A stretch of 18,486 bases of DNA from Chthonomonadales bacterium (GCA_038217285.1 JBBQPO010000110.1:1-18486); one strand, 5' to 3'; shown: positions 3,001 to 18,000, counted from the first letter of the stretch. Numbers are program-made.

Positions 3001-6000
3001 ATGTGCGCGACTTCGGCACGGTCAAACGCTCTTTTTGGGAGGAGGCGAAATTCCTTCTAAAGCAGATGTTCAAACATTCGCCGGCCAGCGCTTCTTTGCC
3101 GCGTTCCGCTCTGTCAATCGCCGTACAGGCCGACAACACCGTAATGGTTCACGCGCTTCTAAAGGCAGGCGCAAATGATGTCAACGCGGAGATAGGGACT
3201 ACGGATGGCCGTGATTATCAGTTTCCTCTCGTCAACTATGCCGCCAACGTCGGCAACCTGGAAATCGTGAAGGAGTTGTGTGCCAGAGGGGCCGACATTC
3301 ACAAACTCAATTCGGAGAGTGAGATCATCCTCCAATCTGCCCTGGAAAGCAGCGGCAGGTATGAAGTCCCTGCGAACAAGGCTGCCGATGTCGCATGGCT
3401 TCTTGATCACAGACGCCGAACGGAAATTTTTCATCTACTGCAGGCAAAGGGCGCGAAGTACGAGGCGAACTCAAAAACCGGACATGCCCTGCTGTTTGCC
3501 GCCGCCGGCGGCGATTTTCTCGAACTGACGCGTGAACTGCTTGTTGCAGGTATATCAGCCAATGCGAGGCCGGAATGGGTGGCTTACCCTCCCGAATTTA
3601 CGGCACTCGACTACGCAGTGACCAACGACGACATTGCTCTCGTTAAACTCCTCTTGCAGTATGGCGCCTCCATTGAAGATGCACAGTCCGAGGCTGCTAT
3701 TCTGTACGTGAAAAGTCCGGCGATGGCACGACTTCTCCTGGAACATGGCGCAGACATCCACGCGATTTCCAGGCGCGGGAAACGGGAAGGCGCAAATGCA
3801 TTGAACTTTGCCTGTATCAACGGAGATGCAAAAGTGATCTCGTTCTTGATCGAGCATGGCTTAGACGTCAATTCCACCAAAGAGTACAGCAGCCCGATAA
3901 CGGAAGCGGCGGAATACGGCGGCGTCGGGGCCGTTCGACTGCTTCTGAAACGTGGCGCAAAAGTCGGCCCAAAATCTCCGGGAGCCGATGCGCTCTACAT
4001 GGCGATTGCAGATTCCCACTTCGACAGTGCGAAGCTAATTCTGCGTTATGGCGCCGCCGTCAATTCGAAGGAAGGCAGTCCGCTTACAGAAGCGGCTAAT
4101 CAAGACAATTTCGATATGGCGCTCGAACTTCTCAAACGCGGGGCGAATGTGAATGCAGGCAGAGGCGAAGCGCTTGTCGCCGCCTGTGAAAGTTGTGACG
4201 AGGACCTCGTCGATCTGCTGCTCCAGTATGGCGCCGATCCTACGGTTCGCGCGAGCGATGGCACGACCGCCATCCAGACGGCGAGACAAAACGCCGATCC
4301 GCCGGAAGACGCCAACGGAATTATTGCGCTGCTGAAAGACTACGGCGCGAAACGGTAGTTTCTTCACTCTTCGTCCTCGGGGTCTTCACTGGACGGCTCC
4401 GGGGTTGGCGTCGCCTGTTGGCGCATCTGTTGGCGCAACAGCAGAACTTGCGAACGCATGGCGGCGTCCATCTGGCCGGACTGTGGGGCGGCGATCCAGC
4501 GCATCATGGAAGAGAGGAATAGCTCTTTCAGGTAGGCGAAGGAGAAGCCTTCTGTCAGGGCGACGATCTCCGTGATCCCCACGACCGAGAGTCGCATATC
4601 AGGCTCCAGCGCCGTGTTCCAGTGCGTGATATAGGCTTCGCGTTCGCCGGGGGCGGGCATTGCGAAGGTATATTTGCGGTCGAAGCGGCTGGGGCGGTCC
4701 AGAATGGCCGGGTCCAGCTTTTCCGGATGGTTGGTGGAGGCGATTACCACGACCCCGGTATTGTTTGCAAACCCATCCAGTTCGTTGAGGAAGAAGGAGC
4801 GGTTGCGGTCGTTGATGAGCGAGAGGAGGAGGCCGAAAAGGGGCCCCTTTTCGTTCTCCAGGCAGGATGTTACATCGGGCGCGTCGAAACGTCTTATGGA
4901 GCAACGACGGCAGAGAGGGGCCGCGCAGTTTAGCCTCTTGAAACCGAAACAACGCCGAAGAGAGACGTTGACAGGGCTGCGCTTGATTTTTGCGCGCCAT
5001 TATGATACTATGGGGTAGTATATCATCCCCACCTCGAATTATTCTTGCTTCGGTTTGCAGCGGCGCGGTCACCTCTGCCGCCCATTCTGCAAACCGCCTG
5101 GAAGAAACGAAGAACGACGACGTTCCCTCCTGACGATCTGCGTTCACTCGTTTTCCCCATAAGAAGGGAAGCGTCCATGCCTTGTTTCGGGAATAGCCTC
5201 TCGCCTCGCTCTGTTTGGAGCAGAGGTTTCGCATCCGTTCTGTTCGCGCTCCTGCTGCTCGGGGGAGTGGGCCGTGTCGCCCGCGCCGCCGACGTCACGA
5301 AAGAGTTTCAGGACAAGTATCGCGAGATCTACGGTGCCGTAGACGCGGCACGGCTGCAGCAGACGGTGCAAGACCTCGGTAAGTTCAAGTCGCGTGTCGC
5401 GGGCTATCCCGACAGCGACAAAGCCGCCGACTATGTCAAAGGACAGATTCAGGGGATCCTCGGTCCCGGCAGCGTACAGGAAGACGCATACCATATCACC
5501 ATTCCTTATGATCTCGGTGTGGACGATCCGGCGAAGGGCGCGTATGTGCAGGTAGTGCCAACCCCCGGCGGAGCGGCAGCGACGAGCGCGACCTTGGCTG
5601 CGGCCCCCTTGCGGATGTATCCGCTCTGGCCCAATCTGGTCCGCACCCCGACCCTCCCCGCCAACGGCCTGACCGCCCCCCTTATCTATGTCCGAGACGG
5701 CAAACTTCGCAACTTCAACGGCAAAGATGTAGACGGCGCGGTCGTCATGGTCGATTTCAACTGCGCGGCGGAGTGGATGAACGCCCCGCGCCTCGGCGCG
5801 AAAGCCGTCATCTTCGTCGCCCCGACCACCACGATGCGCGGCGAGGCTGAAGCCAAGTTCATCTCGATCCCCATCGCCATTCCCCGCTTCTATATGACCA
5901 AGGAGGACGCCGCGCCCCTGCTTGCCCAGTGCGTCAGCGGGCGCGCCCCGACGGTCAAGCTCACCTGCACTATGCCCTGGGAAACCAAAACAGGGCGCAA

Positions 6001-15000: not shown

Positions 15001-18000
15001 AGCAGGCGAAGAAGAACAAGGCCAGCTTTGAGAGCACGATCCGCGCGGAGAAGACCGAAGGCAGGGACAATGAGCGCAGCTCGATCAACTTTTCGTGGAT
15101 AGACGCGGGACGCGGACAGGGCAAGATCTGGCAGTGTTCCGTCTGCAACCGGATCGTTATCGCGCAGGTGGTCGGGCTGGCGAAAGACCAGGCGGCGATT
15201 AGCGCCGTGGCGTCGCAGCTCTTCGCCACCCTGGAAGACCATCCGACCGACGGCTACGACCTGTGGGCGCTCTACGATCTGCAGATCGGCATTCCGGAAG
15301 ATTTTCGGCTGGAAGAGCAGAAGCTGCTCTCCGGCTATCTGCATCTGAGCTTCGCGCGCGGCGGCGAGAAGATCATCGTGGACCGGTGGGGGCTGGCGAA
15401 CGTGACGCGCAAGAAGTTCAGCCTGGCCGACTGGTTCGCCAACCACGCGTTCGTCCGGCTGAAACGCCTGACGAAAGACGAAGAGACGCTCTACGATCAT
15501 GAGGCCATCCACTATGTCGGCAGCCTCAGCTTCTTCGACCGTCTGCGCCTGCTGCGAGACGCCAAGACGTCGCTGCGCCGCTTCCCGACCCGCTACGAGG
15601 GGGGCTTATGGGAGTGCGTCGATTCGAACAAGCTCTACGCCGTGCAGGTGCTGCACAGCCAGAAGACGGAAGGACTATGGGACGAGGTTACTGACCGATG
15701 CGTTTGCCACTGAAGATGCGCCTCTACTACGGAATCGGACGCTATCTGCCATTTCTGAAGATTCGTCCGCCGGATGTCGATAGGCAGGCGACGCTGACGC
15801 TCCGGCCCGGCCGGAACGCTCTGCTGACCTGGGAGAAGCGCGAGACGGGCGGTACACTGCTGACGGTGCCGCAGAACGCCAAAGCGGGCCGAATCACCAA
15901 AACGATGGCGAAATGGCTGCGCGCTCCCACCGAGCGCCAGGTCGAACTGGACGAGGTGGGCGCCTATGTGTGGGAACTGTGCGATGGCAGTCATACCGTC
16001 GAGACAATCGTCCAGAAGACGGGCAGACAGTATAAGATGAACCGACGCGAGGCAGAAGTCTCCGTCACGATGTTTCTGCAGATGCTGCACGAGCGTAATT
16101 TCATAGGCTTCTATAAAAAAGTCAAAAAGAGTTGAGGGAAAATAACCTATGAGCGATCAATCTATCCAGCAGCCCATTCAGGCTTCCATCAAGGTGCAGA
16201 AGCAGGTTTCGCTGCGCTTCTCAAAAGCCTGGGAGATCACGATCAAGAGCATTAAGATACGCTTGGCCCGTTCGCTTATCACGGCGGCCGGTATCGCCCT
16301 TGGTATCGCCTTCTACAGCTCGGTGCGGGCCGCCGGTCTGTTCCCGTCGGAGGGGGTCGGCGCGGAGGCCCTGGCGGCGGCGCACCGGCAGCAGTGGCTG
16401 GCGGTCATGGCCCTTATGGTCTGCTTCGTCGGTATCATGAACTCCATGCTGATGTCGGTGACGGAGCGGTTCAAAGAGATCGGCACGATGAAGTGCCTCG
16501 GAGCCCTGAACCGCGACATCATCATGCTCTTCTTCCTCGAAGCCATGCTCATGGGCCTGACGGCCTCGTTCCTGGGCTGGCTGGTCGGCTGGCTCATCGT
16601 GGTGGTCATTCACCTCTTCACCGGCGGCTTTCAGCCCGCGTTCATCGGCGGTTCGCTCGTGCAGATGTTGCTCTCAACGGGCATCGGCGTCGCGATCACG
16701 CTGCTGGCGGGGATTCCGCCCGCCATCAACGCCGCGCGTATGGCTCCCGCCGTCGCGCTGCGCTCGTCCATCTAATATCAAAAGAAAGGGTTCCTAATTC
16801 ATGGGCGCCAATGAGTATGTGGTTCGCACAAAAGGCCTGATCAAAGAGTTCACGATGGGCGATGAAACCCTCCGCGCCCTGAACGGCGTGGATCTGGACA
16901 TTCGACGTGGCGAGTATATCTCGATCATGGGCCCTTCCGGCTCCGGCAAATCGACGCTGTTCAACGCCATCGGCGGCCTGGACAAGCCGACTTCCGGCTC
17001 GGTCTTCATCAACGACGTCGATATGGCGCAGCTGGATGCCTCCGAACTGGCCTATTTGCGCTGCCACACCATCGGCTATATCTTCCAGTCGTATAACCTT
17101 ATCCCCGTTATGACCGCGCTTGAGAACGTGGTGCTGCCGACGATCTTCGCCGGAATGCCCACCGACGAAGGCGTCGAGCGCGGTATGGAGATGCTCAACA
17201 AGGTCGGCCTGGGGCATCGCTTCCACCACCGTCCCACGGAGCTCTCTGGAGGCCAGCAGCAGCGCGTCGCCATCGCCCGTTCTCTGGCGAACCGACCCGC
17301 CATCGTCCTCGCCGACGAGCCGACCGGCAACCTGGATCTGAAGACCGGGACCGAGATCATCGAACTGCTGCGCGAGTTGAACCGCAATGAAGGCGTGACG
17401 ATCATCTCGGCGACCCACGACTATAAAATGGTCGATGTTTCGGACCGTGTCGTCTGGATTCGAGACGGCCGTATCGCCAAGATCGAAGAGCGCGCCGACA
17501 TCGATATCACCGTCGGCGAGATGCACGTCGAAGAGTAGTTTCGTTTTCAGGATTCAATAGGAGTGGAGAGACCGCAATGAAGTTTGCATCGAAGCAGATC
17601 GTTGGCGCGGGGGTTTTCCTCGCGTTCGGCGCGGGATGCGGGGCCGTTCTTACGGCGCAGGCTCAGCAACAGCAGGACGAACATCTCGGCTATCAGGATA
17701 CGCCCATGCTCGGCAGGTGGCATGTCCACGACGGCCTGCGGCCGCAGCCGACAGAGATCGACCCCGGCACAGCCAGCACCAACCGCAGGCCCGGTCGCCC
17801 GCCGTCCGATGCCGTTGTGTTGTTCAACGGCAAGAATCTCTCCCACTGGACGAGCCAGAGCGGTGGAGCGCCGGGCTGGAAAGTGGAGCACGGCTACATG
17901 GAAGTCGCCTCCAAAGAGTCGATCATCACGCGCGACCAGATCGGCGACTGCCAACTGCACGTTGAATGGTCCGCCCCTAAGCCGCCGACAGGCACAGGGC

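What a model noticed while it worked through the whole genome (the two positions that open the first line are those of the whole stretch)
5045..17538. Phylum-wide six-gene operon: giant M28-peptidase/MacB-type permease with two orphan protein families
An operon of a 1,772-aa M28+MacB_PCD+FtsX membrane protein, a 682-aa membrane protein, a 356-aa Cys-rich protein, a PqqD-like protein, a small FtsX permease and an ABC ATPase is kept in order across Armatimonadota. The 682-aa and 356-aa proteins belong to no described family. It looks like a lineage-specific type VII ABC envelope machine of unknown substrate.
Evidence so far: Domains: calls 55, 127, 142, 168. No Pfam (E<=1), NCBIfam (E<=0.01) or PDB-sequence match for the two orphans: calls 127, 139, 141, 149, 168. 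Same order in 10 of 10 family loci; six-gene core in 13 of 16 loci of other families, 3 with the 682-aa gene alone. 682-aa protein in 322 of 401 phylum genomes; 1,623 database clusters, none of the best 120 with a Pfam domain. In-frame fusion of the giant and the 682-aa gene in G290. No paper among those listed links Armatimonadota with FtsX/MacB.
(Added by a program. Inside this text positions count along the whole contig: contig position 1 is position 1 of the stretch shown here. "Call 12" and the like, gene names such as g00115 and contig names such as C1 are that model's own, and its searches are not shown. The text may have been shortened before it was handed on; [...] marks where a part breaks off. 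The agent that wrote the report below was given it as the finding of a first reader that could run no searches.)

Follow-up and report, generated by a model that had tools for sequence, protein, structure and literature searches.

The report
ABC motor plus OPT-like permease operon
A conserved gene cluster joins a MacB-type ATP-driven membrane motor with a huge peptidase-like outer head to a distant relative of oligopeptide transporters and two cytoplasmic helper proteins; this combination was in none of the papers searched and is probably an uptake or export machine for a peptide-like substrate.

Summary
The operon is real. It holds eight co-directional genes in 5045-17538, not six.

Gene order is conserved: 17 of 25 picked Armatimonadota loci and 43 of 43 Chthonomonadales loci, as far as contigs reach. 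The 682-aa protein and the giant's C-terminal domain each occur in 322 of 401 phylum genomes, with nearly identical per-family tallies.

Neither "orphan" is truly one:
- The 682-aa protein is a divergent OPT/YSL-superfamily permease. Its profile hits full-length proteins at E 1e-92 to 1e-65, and 26 of 52 of those pass Pfam's OPT threshold.
- The 356-aa protein is a cytoplasmic tandem PsbP/Mog1-fold protein (Z up to 14.4) with four invariant cysteines.

The M28 head has lost the canonical metal and catalytic residues. The system is not lineage-specific: near-identical relatives of a protein NCBI labels Poribacteria sit in the same gene order on 13 of 15 long metagenome contigs.

The best reading is a type VII ABC mechanotransducer coupled to an OPT-fold permease. 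Substrate and direction are unknown. None of seven literature searches found a paper describing it.

The parts
5177..10363 (+). Giant membrane protein (1,728 aa from ATG 5177; 1,772 aa if the TTG at 5045 is used). It runs: signal peptide, PA/M28-like head, beta-sandwich stalk, 3 TM helices, MacB-type module (TM1, periplasmic core domain, TM2-4), then a conserved cytoplasmic C-terminal domain.
   Evidence: Pfam hits. phmmer to PA-domain aminopeptidase 2ek8, E 3.5e-10. Hydropathy. RBS-like AAGGGA before 5177. Single copy in the genome.
5999..6271 (+). First half of the M28 fold (Pfam positions 1-87 of 193). The canonical His and Glu-Glu positions are replaced (SYYDS; SAHF).
   Evidence: 21-sequence alignment. 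That these positions are metal or catalytic residues is recalled from the Aeromonas aminopeptidase literature, not tested here.
6257..6526 (+). Two-helix transmembrane hairpin inserted inside the M28-like fold (aa 405-494). It is lineage-specific.
   Evidence: Hydropathy peaks of 2.65 and 2.36. These columns are 39-75% gaps among 21 orthologues.
6950..8179 (+). Extracytoplasmic stalk (aa 636-1045): beta-sandwich domain(s) followed by three long helices that lead into the membrane.
   Evidence: AF2 model, pLDDT 75.1, pTM 0.73. Only generic CnaB/transthyretin/Ig-like matches: best Z 8.1, rmsd 3.3, 93 aligned; Foldseek best E 1.5e-4.
8600..9820 (+). MacB-type permease module: MacB_PCD (aa 1186-1357) and FtsX TM2-4 (aa 1483-1592).
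9830..10309 (+). Cytoplasmic C-terminal domain of the giant (aa 1596-1755). It is highly conserved and matches no known family.
   Evidence: Alignment A5, mean column identity 63%. No Pfam hit. No real PDB sequence hit. Not related to the 356-aa protein (hhalign probability 0.5%). Its profile finds 322 of 401 phylum genomes.
10411..11574 (+). Exported LolA-like (DUF2092-like) plus ResA/TlpA-type thioredoxin protein, 387 codons. An in-frame TGA (11269-11271) sits at the first position of the CxxC motif, so this is a candidate selenoprotein (U-G-F-C). It is a lineage-specific insertion in the operon.
   Evidence: ResA match of 5.1e-25 spans the TGA. Cys or TGA occupies the same column in orthologues. 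selA, selB, selD and tRNA-Sec are in the genome.
11282..11298 (+). SECIS-like hairpin (6-bp stem GTGAGG/CCTCAC, loop AGTTG) starting 11 nt after the TGA.
   Evidence: RNA fold. The same hairpin is present in all 4 orthologous loci with TGA and, by eye, not in the Cys-codon loci.
11599..13647 (+). 682-aa polytopic membrane protein: a divergent OPT/YSL-superfamily permease.
   Evidence: At least 9 hydropathy peaks. Single copy.
13737..14558 (+). 273-aa protein with 3 N-terminal TM segments and a C-terminal H-X9-DG motif. It is present in the operon in Chthonomonadales only.
   Evidence: TIGR04294 E 0.0084, below cut-off. Hydropathy. Found in L004-L008 and in 43 of 43 loci.
14643..15713 (+). 356-aa cytoplasmic tandem PsbP/Mog1-fold protein. 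C165, C168, C325, C355, H200 and H286 are invariant.
   Evidence: Alignment A2. AF2 model, pLDDT 85.3. Foldseek PsbP E 5.7e-7. VIA Z 14.4 for domain 1 and 11.9 for domain 2. No TM segment.
15698..16135 (+). 145-aa PqqD-like (RRE-type) protein with a conserved N-terminal extension of about 75 aa. Its start overlaps the end of the 356-aa gene by 16 nt.
   Evidence: Pfam PqqD 53.3 bits. All NCBIfam PqqD-type hits are below their cut-offs. Alignment A3.
16149..16775 (+). 208-aa FtsX-type permease with four TM helices and only about 25 residues between TM1 and TM2, so it has no periplasmic core domain.
   Evidence: Pfam FtsX 65.9 bits. Sequence. Hydropathy.
16801..17538 (+). 245-aa ABC ATPase of the LolD/MacB/FtsE type. 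Walker A, signature, Walker B and H-loop motifs are readable in the sequence.
   Evidence: ABC_tran 117.8 bits. LolD 239.7 bits, below the 307.75 cut-off. Sequence.
17577..18456 (+). 277-aa 3-keto-disaccharide-hydrolase-family (DUF1080-type) protein starting 38 nt after the ATPase gene, followed by the only strong + strand terminator (18428-18456). It is possibly co-transcribed and is not part of the conserved core.
   Evidence: Pfam 137.5 bits. Terminator scan. The gene follows the ATPase only in the closest relatives L030-L032.

Best explanation
The cluster encodes one membrane machine built from three modules.

1. A type VII (MacB/Lol/FtsEX-like) ABC motor. It consists of the FtsX module of the giant protein, the small FtsX protein without a periplasmic domain, and the LolD-like ATPase.
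2. A large extracytoplasmic head carried by the giant protein. It is a PA plus remodelled, probably non-catalytic M28 fold on a beta-sandwich stalk.
3. An OPT-fold secondary permease, the 682-aa protein.

Two cytoplasmic proteins are encoded with the motor cassette: a tandem PsbP/Mog1-fold protein with a four-Cys site and a PqqD-type peptide-binding protein.

Most likely mechanism (inferred, not shown): ATP hydrolysis in the cytoplasm moves the outer head by mechanotransmission, as in MacB and LolCDE. The head captures an oligomeric, probably peptide-like, substrate and feeds it to the OPT-fold permease for uptake. The PqqD/PsbP-like pair binds the substrate, or reports its presence to the ATPase, on the cytoplasmic side.

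What is shown: the domain identities, the conserved order, the co-occurrence and co-loss of the giant and the permease, and the three-module organisation. What is inferred: physical contact between the parts, the direction of transport and the nature of the substrate.

The thioredoxin selenoprotein and the H-X9-DG protein are lineage-specific additions.
For: Motor:
- Pfam and NCBIfam hits for FtsX, MacB_PCD and the ATPase.
- Intact ATPase motifs in the sequence.

OPT identity of the 682-aa protein:
- The A1 profile finds 1,069 proteins at E<=1e-3.
- 52 full-length hits at E 1e-92 to 1e-65 were scanned against Pfam. 29 hit PF03169 at E<=0.01 and 26 pass its gathering score, over nearly the whole profile.
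- Members of those clusters are named 'OPT/YSL family transporter' by NCBI.
- 1 of 26 close family members hits OPT directly at 1.6e-5.
- Atlas lead.

Linkage of the giant and the permease:
- The giant lies directly upstream of the 682-aa gene in 20 of 25 picked loci. In L004 and L006 the thioredoxin gene sits between them.
- Same in 43 of 43 Chthonomonadales loci, as far as the contigs reach.
- Each is found in 322 of 401 genomes, with per-family tallies equal or differing by one. 18 of the 20 listed non-holders are shared, many of them 98-100% complete.
- One in-frame fusion exists, and it is topologically consistent.

Modularity:
- In the 5 genomes where the 682-aa gene is solitary, the giant and the 356-aa homologue exist elsewhere.
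- 356-PqqD-smallFtsX(-ATPase) stays together in 2 of the 3 genomes examined.

Head is non-catalytic:
- The His of the HxD motif is Tyr or Phe in 20 of 21 orthologues.
- The Glu-Glu pair is replaced, with His in all 21 at the first position and F/G/C/H/Y at the second.
- Pfam matches only 87 of 193 M28 positions.

Uptake rather than essential biogenesis:
- OPT-family members with a known substrate are importers (established knowledge, recalled).
- Whole clades lack the system, for example f9 0 of 3 and f11 33 of 47.
- Several families carry two copies of both genes. This pattern is typical of nutrient systems.
Against: - No expression, binding or transport data exist. No RNA run is available and the complex predictor was unavailable.
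- Cytoplasmic cargo-binding folds are best known from export or maturation pathways, not uptake. PqqD/RRE domains and PsbP-like domains, as in Eag chaperones, are examples.
- All well-studied type VII ABC systems act outward or within the periplasm.
- The window's own 682-aa protein does not hit Pfam OPT directly, so its substrate class may differ from that of canonical OPTs.
- The head's ligand is unknown, and the stalk model gave only generic folds.
- The Poribacteria-like loci show no small FtsX gene, so the motor's composition varies.
- Loci were picked among long contigs, and related genomes are not independent.
Confidence: 0.4

Rival explanations
1. Export or envelope-assembly machine. 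The PqqD-like and tandem PsbP-fold proteins hold a cytoplasmic cargo, such as a peptide, a hydrophobic protein segment or a precursor. The OPT-fold protein carries it across the inner membrane. The MacB-type motor with its large head then pushes it onward into the envelope, as LolCDE and MacAB-TolC do with their substrates.
For: - PqqD-type domains are peptide chaperones (Pfam and NCBIfam names).
- Domain 1 of the 356-aa protein matches the Eag-type chaperone SciW (Z 9.2), as well as DcrB (Z 11.1) and LpqN (Z 12.5). LpqN is titled 'involved in cell envelope biogenesis' in its PDB entry; an envelope role for DcrB is recalled, not in its title.
- The 356-PqqD pair travels with the motor cassette.
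- The ATPase is closest to LolD.
- A LolA-like domain is inserted in the operon in this lineage.
- Wza/Wzc-type genes follow the ATPase in one Poribacteria-like contig.
- Known type VII systems work outward (recalled).
Against: - No conserved cargo gene fits in the compact core operon. Gaps are 13-170 nt in L011.
- OPT-family members with known function import (recalled).
- The system is missing from whole clades with near-complete genomes, so it cannot be an essential biogenesis pathway.
- The LolA-like and Wza/Wzc neighbours are not conserved.
Confidence: 0.3
2. FtsEX-like regulator. The ABC motor does not transport anything. It switches the activity of its own outer head, or of a partner hydrolase, on the cell surface. 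The OPT-like permease recycles the released fragments, for example cell-wall peptides.
For: - FtsEX-type systems control periplasmic hydrolases by ATP-driven conformational change (recalled).
- The head is peptidase-derived.
- A peptide-type permease is always adjacent.
Against: - The head lacks the canonical M28 catalytic and metal residues.
- No hydrolase gene is conserved in the operon.
- The NCBIfam FtsX hits are far below their cut-offs.
- The system can be lost by whole clades.
Confidence: 0.1
3. RiPP or bacteriocin locus. The PqqD-like protein is the recognition element for a ribosomal precursor peptide, which is matured and exported by the ABC system.
For: - PqqD Pfam hit, plus weak NCBIfam hits to lasso-peptide and other RiPP chaperones, all below their cut-offs.
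- The ATPase resembles bacteriocin and darobactin exporter ATPases at a generic level.
Against: - The operon holds no radical-SAM, YcaO, cyclase, lanthipeptide or leader-protease gene.
- There is no room for a precursor gene in the compact core.
- The system is single copy and conserved in order across a phylum and beyond, unlike patchy secondary-metabolite loci.
Confidence: 0.05

Closest known systems
Type VII ABC transporters / mechanotransducers (MacB, LolCDE, FtsEX, BceAB, HrtBA, YbbAP)
   Same: It has a four-helix FtsX membrane domain, a MacB-type periplasmic core domain between TM1 and TM2 of the giant, and a separate LolD/FtsE-like ATPase with intact motifs. Two unlike permease subunits (giant plus small FtsX) recall LolC/LolE.
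   Different: - The permease is fused behind an extracytoplasmic head and stalk of about 1,000 residues, plus three extra TM helices.
- It carries a conserved cytoplasmic C-terminal domain of 160 residues.
- The second permease has no periplasmic domain at all.
- No MacA/TolC-type or EnvC-type partner is in the operon.
- It is coupled genomically to an OPT-fold permease and to PqqD-like and PsbP-like proteins.
- All NCBIfam equivalog scores are far below their cut-offs.
OPT/YSL oligopeptide transporter superfamily (Pfam PF03169)
   Same: Similar length (682 aa) and polytopic membrane topology. Homology is transitive and full-length, through proteins that pass Pfam's OPT threshold and are named OPT/YSL by NCBI.
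   Different: - The window's protein does not hit PF03169 itself at E<=10.
- It forms a separate clade of more than 1,600 clusters.
- Its presence and loss track those of an ABC-type partner, which is not known for canonical OPTs.
- No solved OPT structure was found by sequence.
PsbP / Mog1 / DcrB / LpqN / Eag (DUF1795) fold proteins
   Same: Both halves of the 356-aa protein adopt this alpha/beta sandwich. Domain 1 matches 2xb3 (Z 14.4, rmsd 3.2, 143 aligned). Domain 2 matches 3hlz (Z 11.9, rmsd 3.5, 123 aligned).
   Different: - No sequence-level relation to any of these families.
- It is a tandem of two such domains.
- It is cytoplasmic.
- It has four invariant Cys and two invariant His, a likely metal site.
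PqqD / RiPP recognition elements (PF05402)
   Same: The C-terminal 60 residues match the PqqD profile above threshold.
   Different: - It carries a conserved N-terminal extension of about 75 residues, with an invariant P-x-R within an RPxRN-like consensus.
- No modifying enzyme or precursor gene is nearby.
- Every NCBIfam PqqD-type model scores below its cut-off.
Non-catalytic M28-fold ectodomains (transferrin receptor, nicastrin, GPAA1). This comparison is recalled, not tested.
   Same: It is a PA/M28-type fold with degenerate metal ligands, placed on the outer face of a membrane complex, where such domains act as substrate receptors.
   Different: It is bacterial, it is fused to an ABC permease, and no structural comparison with those proteins was made here.
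ResA/TlpA-type thiol:disulfide oxidoreductases and UxxC thioredoxin-fold selenoproteins
   Same: ResA-like domain (5.1e-25). The redox motif has TGA in place of the first Cys, alongside Cys-containing orthologues and a downstream hairpin.
   Different: It has an N-terminal LolA-like (DUF2092-like) domain. It scores below every NCBIfam cut-off, including the WAxxUGC and TUGYCR selenoprotein models.

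Membership tests
Type VII ABC (MacB-type) system | FtsX-type four-helix permease domain | tested here: met
   PF02687: 52 bits for the giant and 65.9 bits for the small protein; cut-off 25.5.
Type VII ABC (MacB-type) system | Large periplasmic core domain between TM1 and TM2 | tested here: met
   Giant: PF12704 at 27.0 bits, exactly the cut-off of 27, and 31.2 bits on an excerpt. The small FtsX subunit lacks it; its loop is about 25 aa.
Type VII ABC (MacB-type) system | Cognate ABC ATPase with Walker A, signature, Walker B and H-loop | tested here: met
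   PF00005 at 117.8 bits. The motifs were read in the sequence.
Type VII ABC (MacB-type) system | Physical assembly and ATP-driven mechanotransmission | not testable with these tools
   The complex predictor was unavailable. No experimental data.
LolCDE / MacB / FtsEX equivalogs | Score above NCBIfam equivalog cut-offs | tested here: not met
   LolD 239.7 bits against 307.75. MacB 24.5 and 57.8 bits against 966. LolC/E and FtsX models are far below their cut-offs.
OPT/YSL transporter superfamily (PF03169) | Direct match to the Pfam OPT profile | tested here: not met
   The window's protein has no hit at E<=10. 1 of 26 family members hits, at 1.6e-5.
OPT/YSL transporter superfamily (PF03169) | Full-length homology to bona fide OPT-family proteins | tested here: met
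   The family profile hits full-length proteins at E 1e-92 to 1e-65. Of 52 scanned, 26 pass the OPT gathering score and 29 hit at E<=0.01. NCBI names some of them 'OPT/YSL family transporter'.
OPT/YSL transporter superfamily (PF03169) | Proton-coupled uptake of oligopeptides or metal chelates | not testable with these tools
   Needs transport assays.
Peptidase family M28 | Match to the M28 profile | tested here: inconclusive
   42 bits, above the 21.3 cut-off, but only profile positions 1-87 of 193. phmmer to the aminopeptidases 2ek8 and 1amp.
Peptidase family M28 | Co-catalytic zinc ligands and catalytic Glu (His, Asp, Glu-Glu, Asp, His; positions recalled) | tested here: not met
   - HxD His is Tyr or Phe in 20 of 21 orthologues.
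- The Glu-Glu pair reads His plus F/G/C/H/Y.
- The last His position reads Asp in 19 of 21 orthologues (Glu in L013, Gly in L027).
- The bridging Asp is kept as Asp or Glu.
PqqD / RRE | Match to PF05402 above threshold | tested here: met
   53.3 bits against 23.4.
PqqD / RRE | Partner maturation enzyme and precursor peptide in the locus | tested here: not met
   No such domain in any operon protein. Core operons are too compact for an extra gene.
PsbP/Mog1-like fold | Structural match covering a whole domain, well above background | tested here: met
   - Model pLDDT 85.3.
- Foldseek probability 1.0, E 5.7e-7.
- VIA Z 14.4, 12.9 and 12.6 for residues 21-201, and Z 11.9 and 9.5 for residues 202-356. 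The tool's note gives a typical best Z of 7-8 for models without a clear match.
Bacterial selenoprotein (thioredoxin fold, UxxC) | In-frame TGA aligned with Cys in homologues | tested here: met
   Among 16 distinct orthologous loci: TGA in 4, TGT/TGC in 9, Ser or Phe in 3.
Bacterial selenoprotein (thioredoxin fold, UxxC) | SECIS-type hairpin just downstream of the TGA | tested here: met
   A 6-bp stem with a 5-nt loop starts 11 nt after the TGA. It is kept in all 4 TGA loci, with a loop change only. No covariance model was run.
Bacterial selenoprotein (thioredoxin fold, UxxC) | selA, selB, selD and tRNA-Sec in the genome | tested here: met
   selB 396.2 bits. selA 522.8 bits. selD 362.2 bits. 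tRNA-SeC with anticodon TCA on contig C99.
Bacterial selenoprotein (thioredoxin fold, UxxC) | Selenium incorporation | not testable with these tools
   Needs 75Se labelling or mass spectrometry.

The most novel reading that the evidence does not exclude
A hybrid primary/secondary transporter. An ATP-driven MacB-type mechanotransducer with a receptor-like pseudo-peptidase head physically gates or loads an OPT-fold permease. A cytoplasmic PqqD/PsbP-fold pair receives or senses the cargo. This would be a previously unrecognised class of membrane machine. Unchecked earlier scan notes also place it in PVC bacteria, Latescibacterota, Gemmatimonadota and archaea.
Probability: 0.3. Interest if true: 0.85.

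Novelty: new variant of a known kind. Interest (0 to 1): 0.6.

Why it matters
Type VII ABC systems (MacB, LolCDE, FtsEX) are a small, intensively studied group. In each, a cytoplasmic ATPase does mechanical work in the periplasm. None is known to work with a secondary transporter or to carry a receptor-like head of this size.

OPT transporters in bacteria and archaea are almost unstudied. If the two act together, this would be a new way of coupling ATP to a secondary permease. It would also give a function to more than a thousand 'hypothetical' protein clusters in several poorly known phyla.

Cultured Armatimonadota could make it testable. One locus is labelled Chthonomonas calidirosea, but it comes from a MAG. 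Whether the cultured strain carries the cluster was not checked.

The report also corrects the annotation. One 'orphan' is OPT-like. The other has a PsbP-like fold. A gene that looks broken is a selenoprotein.

Tried and rejected
- Direct sequence routes for the two 'orphans' gave nothing: Pfam at E<=10 for the 682-aa protein, NCBIfam at E<=0.1, and PDB sequence profiles. A second-tier OPT protein also found no solved OPT structure.
- The hypothesis that the giant's C-terminal domain has the same fold family as the 356-aa protein was rejected at profile level (hhalign probability 0.5%). It has no PDB sequence relative and no Pfam hit.
- The stalk model (aa 636-1045) gave only generic beta-sandwich and helical matches, so no functional clue. 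A weak GPI-transamidase PIGS match (Z 7.1, 68 aligned) is within background.
- The genome-contig scan with the 356-aa alignment returned only Chthonomonadales (43 loci). Its patterns were too specific to answer the outside-phylum question.
- The search for fused giant-682 proteins longer than 1,194 aa found none. The tool itself calls this weak evidence.
- Complex prediction for the 356-aa protein plus PqqD was not available, so no binding prediction exists.
- No RNA holder is listed. Only DNA contigs could be laid, so there is no expression or transcript-boundary data.
- The promoter scan found no more sites than in shuffles: 3 against a mean of 3.0.
- Seven literature searches returned nothing relevant: Armatimonadetes+FtsX; OPT family/MacB/PqqD; DUF6785/DUF6784; MacB_PCD+M28; type VII ABC/oligopeptide transporter/OPT; FtsX+peptidase M28; mechanotransmission+MacB+OPT. 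Only listings and abstracts were seen; no paper was read.
- The RiPP reading was considered and largely rejected (see rivals).

Full report
**What is in the window.** Between 5045 and 17538 the + strand carries eight tightly spaced genes:

- the giant gene (5045/5177-10363)
- a gene at 10411-11574 that table 11 splits in two
- the 682-aa gene (11599-13647)
- a 273-aa gene (13737-14558)
- the 356-aa gene (14643-15713)
- a PqqD-like gene (15698-16135), which overlaps the previous gene by 16 nt
- a 208-aa FtsX gene (16149-16775)
- an ABC ATPase gene (16801-17538)

Gaps between genes are 13-89 nt. The only strong + strand terminator lies at 18428-18456, after a ninth gene of the 3-keto-disaccharide hydrolase family (137.5 bits). 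The promoter scan was no better than shuffles. The giant most likely starts at ATG 5177. An AAGGGA motif lies 7 nt upstream, and orthologues align only from there.

ORFs 10411-11271 and 11290-11574 are in the same frame, separated by one TGA at 11269-11271.

- Read through, the product has a signal peptide and a weak LolA-like/DUF2092 region (E 0.0042). It also has a ResA/TlpA-type thioredoxin domain whose match (5.1e-25) spans the TGA.
- The TGA replaces the first Cys of the CxxC motif (FWDYG-U-GFC).
- In 16 distinct orthologous loci the same column is TGA in 4, a Cys codon in 9, and Ser or Phe in 3.
- All four TGA loci, and the window, carry the hairpin GTGAGG-AGTTN-CCTCAC starting 11 nt downstream. 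By eye, the Cys loci do not.
- The genome encodes selB (396 bits), selA (523 bits), selD (362 bits, itself with an in-frame TGA) and a tRNA-Sec.
- Contigs from two other studies cover the site, and no difference is listed at the TGA. A synonymous change is listed in the next Cys codon. 99 differences were not shown, so this is modest support.

This is a candidate selenoprotein, not a broken gene. It occurs in the operon only in part of Chthonomonadaceae.

The 273-aa protein has three N-terminal TM segments and an H-X9-DG C-terminus (E 0.0084, below cut-off). It is in the operon in Chthonomonadales only.

**Conservation within the phylum.** I picked 25 loci from 25 genomes of 16 families, choosing long contigs.

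- All six core genes lie in the same order and strand in 16 loci. A seventeenth (L004) has the ATPase 2.4 kb further on.
- One locus (L027) is rearranged and has no 356-aa homologue.
- Two loci show only the giant plus the 682-aa gene.
- Five loci show the 682-aa gene alone.

In all five 'alone' genomes the giant's C-terminal domain (E 3e-41 to 7e-76, in ORFs of 1,501-1,633 aa) and a 356-aa homologue are found elsewhere in the genome. In two of the three genomes examined, 356-PqqD-smallFtsX(-ATPase) remains one cassette. The system therefore has three modules: the giant, the OPT-like permease and a motor cassette. They can be unlinked without being lost.

All 43 Chthonomonadales loci found with the 356-aa alignment keep the order as far as the contigs reach.

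The 682-aa protein is found in 322 of 401 sampled genomes. A profile of the giant's C-terminal domain is also found in 322 of 401. Per-family tallies are equal or differ by one. For example, f11 is 14/47 in both, f9 is 0/3 in both, f8 is 2/7 in both, and f23 is 18/28 in both. 18 of the 20 listed non-holders are shared, and many of these are 98-100% complete. Several families show two matches for both genes. The two genes are therefore gained, lost and duplicated together, and the system is dispensable for whole clades. Related genomes are not independent, so no statistic is attached.

**The 682-aa protein is not an orphan.**

- A profile of 26 family members, searched against 1.84 billion representatives, gives 1,069 hits at E<=1e-3.
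- Below the family's own tier lies a tier of full-length proteins of 615-660 aa at E 1e-92 to 1e-65. Of 52 scanned, 29 hit Pfam OPT (PF03169) at E<=0.01 and 26 pass its gathering score, mostly over most of the profile.
- Cluster members are named 'OPT/YSL family transporter' by NCBI, from Bathyarchaeia.
- One of the 26 close members hits OPT directly at 1.6e-5.
- The protein-language-model atlas pointed the same way (a lead only).

The protein is a divergent branch of the OPT superfamily.

**The 356-aa protein has a known fold.** The family is small by sequence (131 clusters). It has invariant C165, C168, C325, C355, H200 and H286 and no TM segment or signal peptide. An AlphaFold2 model from 29 sequences is confident (pLDDT 85.3, pTM 0.77).

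- Foldseek puts PsbP first (E 5.7e-7, probability 1.0; 19 hits at E<=1e-3).
- In the exhaustive aligner, residues 21-201 match cyanobacterial PsbP (Z 14.4, rmsd 3.2, 143 aligned), LpqN (Z 12.5), Mog1 (Z 12.3), DcrB (Z 11.1) and the Eag-type chaperone SciW (Z 9.2).
- Residues 202-356 match BT_1490 (Z 11.9) and Tsi3 (Z 9.5).

It is a cytoplasmic tandem PsbP/Mog1-fold protein with a probable four-Cys metal site. The metal site is an inference; I could not inspect the coordinates.

**The giant protein.** From hydropathy and conservation, the order of parts is:

1. A cleavable signal peptide.
2. An extracytoplasmic PA/M28-like head (aa ~100-640).
3. A beta-sandwich stalk ending in three helices (aa 636-1045; model pLDDT 75; generic matches only).
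4. Three TM helices.
5. A MacB-type module: TM1, periplasmic core domain, TM2-4.
6. A conserved cytoplasmic domain of 160 aa with no known relatives.

This topology is self-consistent with the N-in, C-in FtsX module.

The head aligns to solved aminopeptidases (2ek8, E 3.5e-10; 1amp family). But the residues I recall as metal ligands and catalytic base in the Aeromonas enzyme are replaced:

- The HxD His is Tyr or Phe in 20 of 21 orthologues.
- The Glu-Glu pair reads His plus a variable residue.
- The last His position reads Asp in 19 of 21 orthologues (Glu and Gly in the other two).
- Only the bridging Asp is kept, as Asp or Glu.

Pfam matches only the first 87 of 193 profile positions. In this lineage a two-helix TM hairpin is inserted in the fold; most orthologues lack it. 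The head is therefore probably a binding module rather than a peptidase.

**The motor.** The ATPase has all ABC motifs and is closest to LolD, MacB and FtsE-type ATPases, below every equivalog cut-off. The small FtsX has four TM helices and only about 25 residues between TM1 and TM2. It could pair with the giant's FtsX module as an asymmetric dimer, as LolC pairs with LolE. This pairing is an inference.

**Outside the phylum.**

- First-tier 682-aa homologues include clusters whose NCBI members are labelled Candidatus Poribacteria (P0249, E 4e-209; four records) and Lentisphaerae (P0260, E 2.5e-182).
- A metagenome scan with P0249 gave 36 loci. 15 of them are at least 9 kb.
- 13 of the 15 carry 682-356-PqqD-ATPase in the same order. 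12 of those 13 have the giant upstream. None shows a separate small FtsX. The other 2 show the 682-aa homologue only.
- The atlas also places a 356-like cluster mainly in Poribacteria (a lead only).
- These contigs are unlabelled. The assignment rests on 68-100% identity to NCBI-labelled proteins.
- Earlier notes of this scan describe the same kind of system in Kiritimatiellia, Latescibacterota, Gemmatimonadota and archaea. I did not check those genomes.

The system is not specific to Armatimonadota.

**How it most likely works.** Shown here: domain identities, modular organisation, tight genomic coupling of the giant and the OPT-like permease, and dispensability.

Inferred: the ABC motor (giant FtsX plus small FtsX plus two ATPases) moves the outer head by mechanotransmission. 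The head binds an oligomeric, probably peptide-like, substrate and hands it to the OPT-fold permease. The PqqD-like and PsbP-fold proteins act on the cytoplasmic face of the motor.

I favour uptake (about 0.35-0.4) for two reasons. Characterised OPT proteins import. The pattern of loss and duplication looks like that of a nutrient system.

An export or assembly role (about 0.3) is a serious rival. PqqD-type and Eag-like PsbP folds are cargo binders in export and maturation pathways, and all studied type VII systems act outward.

FtsEX-like hydrolase control (about 0.1) and a RiPP locus (about 0.05) fit less well. The head lacks catalytic residues, no maturation enzyme is present, and the compact core has no room for a precursor gene.

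The single giant-682 fusion (G256, 2,538-aa open frame; separate genes in a sister genome) fits the topology. It is one case, and no other was found.

**Novelty.** None of seven full-text searches returned a paper linking these components. All parts belong to known superfamilies or folds. The combination and the giant architecture are new, so I rate it a new variant of a known kind.

**Limits.**
- No expression data.
- No complex prediction.
- One genome-collection scan only.
- Loci were picked by me among long contigs.
- The catalytic-residue positions and the comparisons with nicastrin-type pseudo-peptidases are recalled, not tested.

Noticed in passing
window 10411-11574 (TGA at 11269-11271; hairpin 11282-11298): A LolA-like/thioredoxin gene that looks split is a candidate UxxC selenoprotein. 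Orthologues show Sec/Cys alternation, the hairpin co-varies with the TGA, and the genome has a full sel gene set.
   Followed up: yes
own genome contig C99: 2293-2390, 3046-3990, 6639-8015: A selenocysteine gene cluster holds tRNA-Sec, selD and selA. selD itself has one in-frame TGA, so SelD may also be a selenoprotein.
   Followed up: partly
window 6257-6526 (giant aa 405-494): A two-helix transmembrane hairpin is inserted inside the M28-like ectodomain. Most orthologues lack it. It would tether the head to the membrane a second time.
   Followed up: partly
L016 (G256:C432) about 9370-9503: The giant and the 682-aa gene form one 2,538-aa open frame through a linker of about 45 aa. In the sister genome (L017) they are separate genes in different frames.
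   Followed up: partly
one search hits P0245, P0247, P0248, P0250, P0252, P0259 (811-1,083 aa): Some close 682-aa homologues are 130-400 residues longer and match the profile in two stretches. This suggests a large inserted domain after about profile position 560.
   Followed up: no
L020 (G144:C1), giant ORF of 2,254 aa: One orthologue of the giant carries an insertion of about 280 codons (about 850 nt) between the parts that align to aa 931 and 922 of the window's protein. Other members of its family show ORFs of 2,034-2,111 aa.
   Followed up: no
window 2700-4358: A 552-aa ankyrin-repeat protein lies between the class-V aminotransferase gene and the giant gene. In L043 and L057 the aminotransferase gene ends about 350-480 nt before the first aligned giant residue, leaving no room for a 1.7-kb ankyrin gene. 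The ankyrin gene therefore looks like an insertion here.
   Followed up: partly
window 4364-5234, minus strand: Two overlapping minus-strand ORFs lie in the 820-nt gap before the giant gene. One has only a weak hit to the last 27 positions of the AAA ATPase profile (E 4.4e-4). It is possibly a gene remnant.
   Followed up: no
L082 5177-9011: In a Poribacteria-like contig, Wza-type (Poly_export/SLBB) and Wzc-type (Wzz/GNVR/P-loop) genes directly follow the system's ATPase gene. This was not seen in the other loci.
   Followed up: partly
L074-L101 (Poribacteria-like loci): No separate small FtsX gene was detected between PqqD and the ATPase, unlike in Armatimonadota. Several of these loci have 5-8 kb of unrelated genes (LamG, PKD, HNH) between the giant and the OPT-like gene.
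   Followed up: partly
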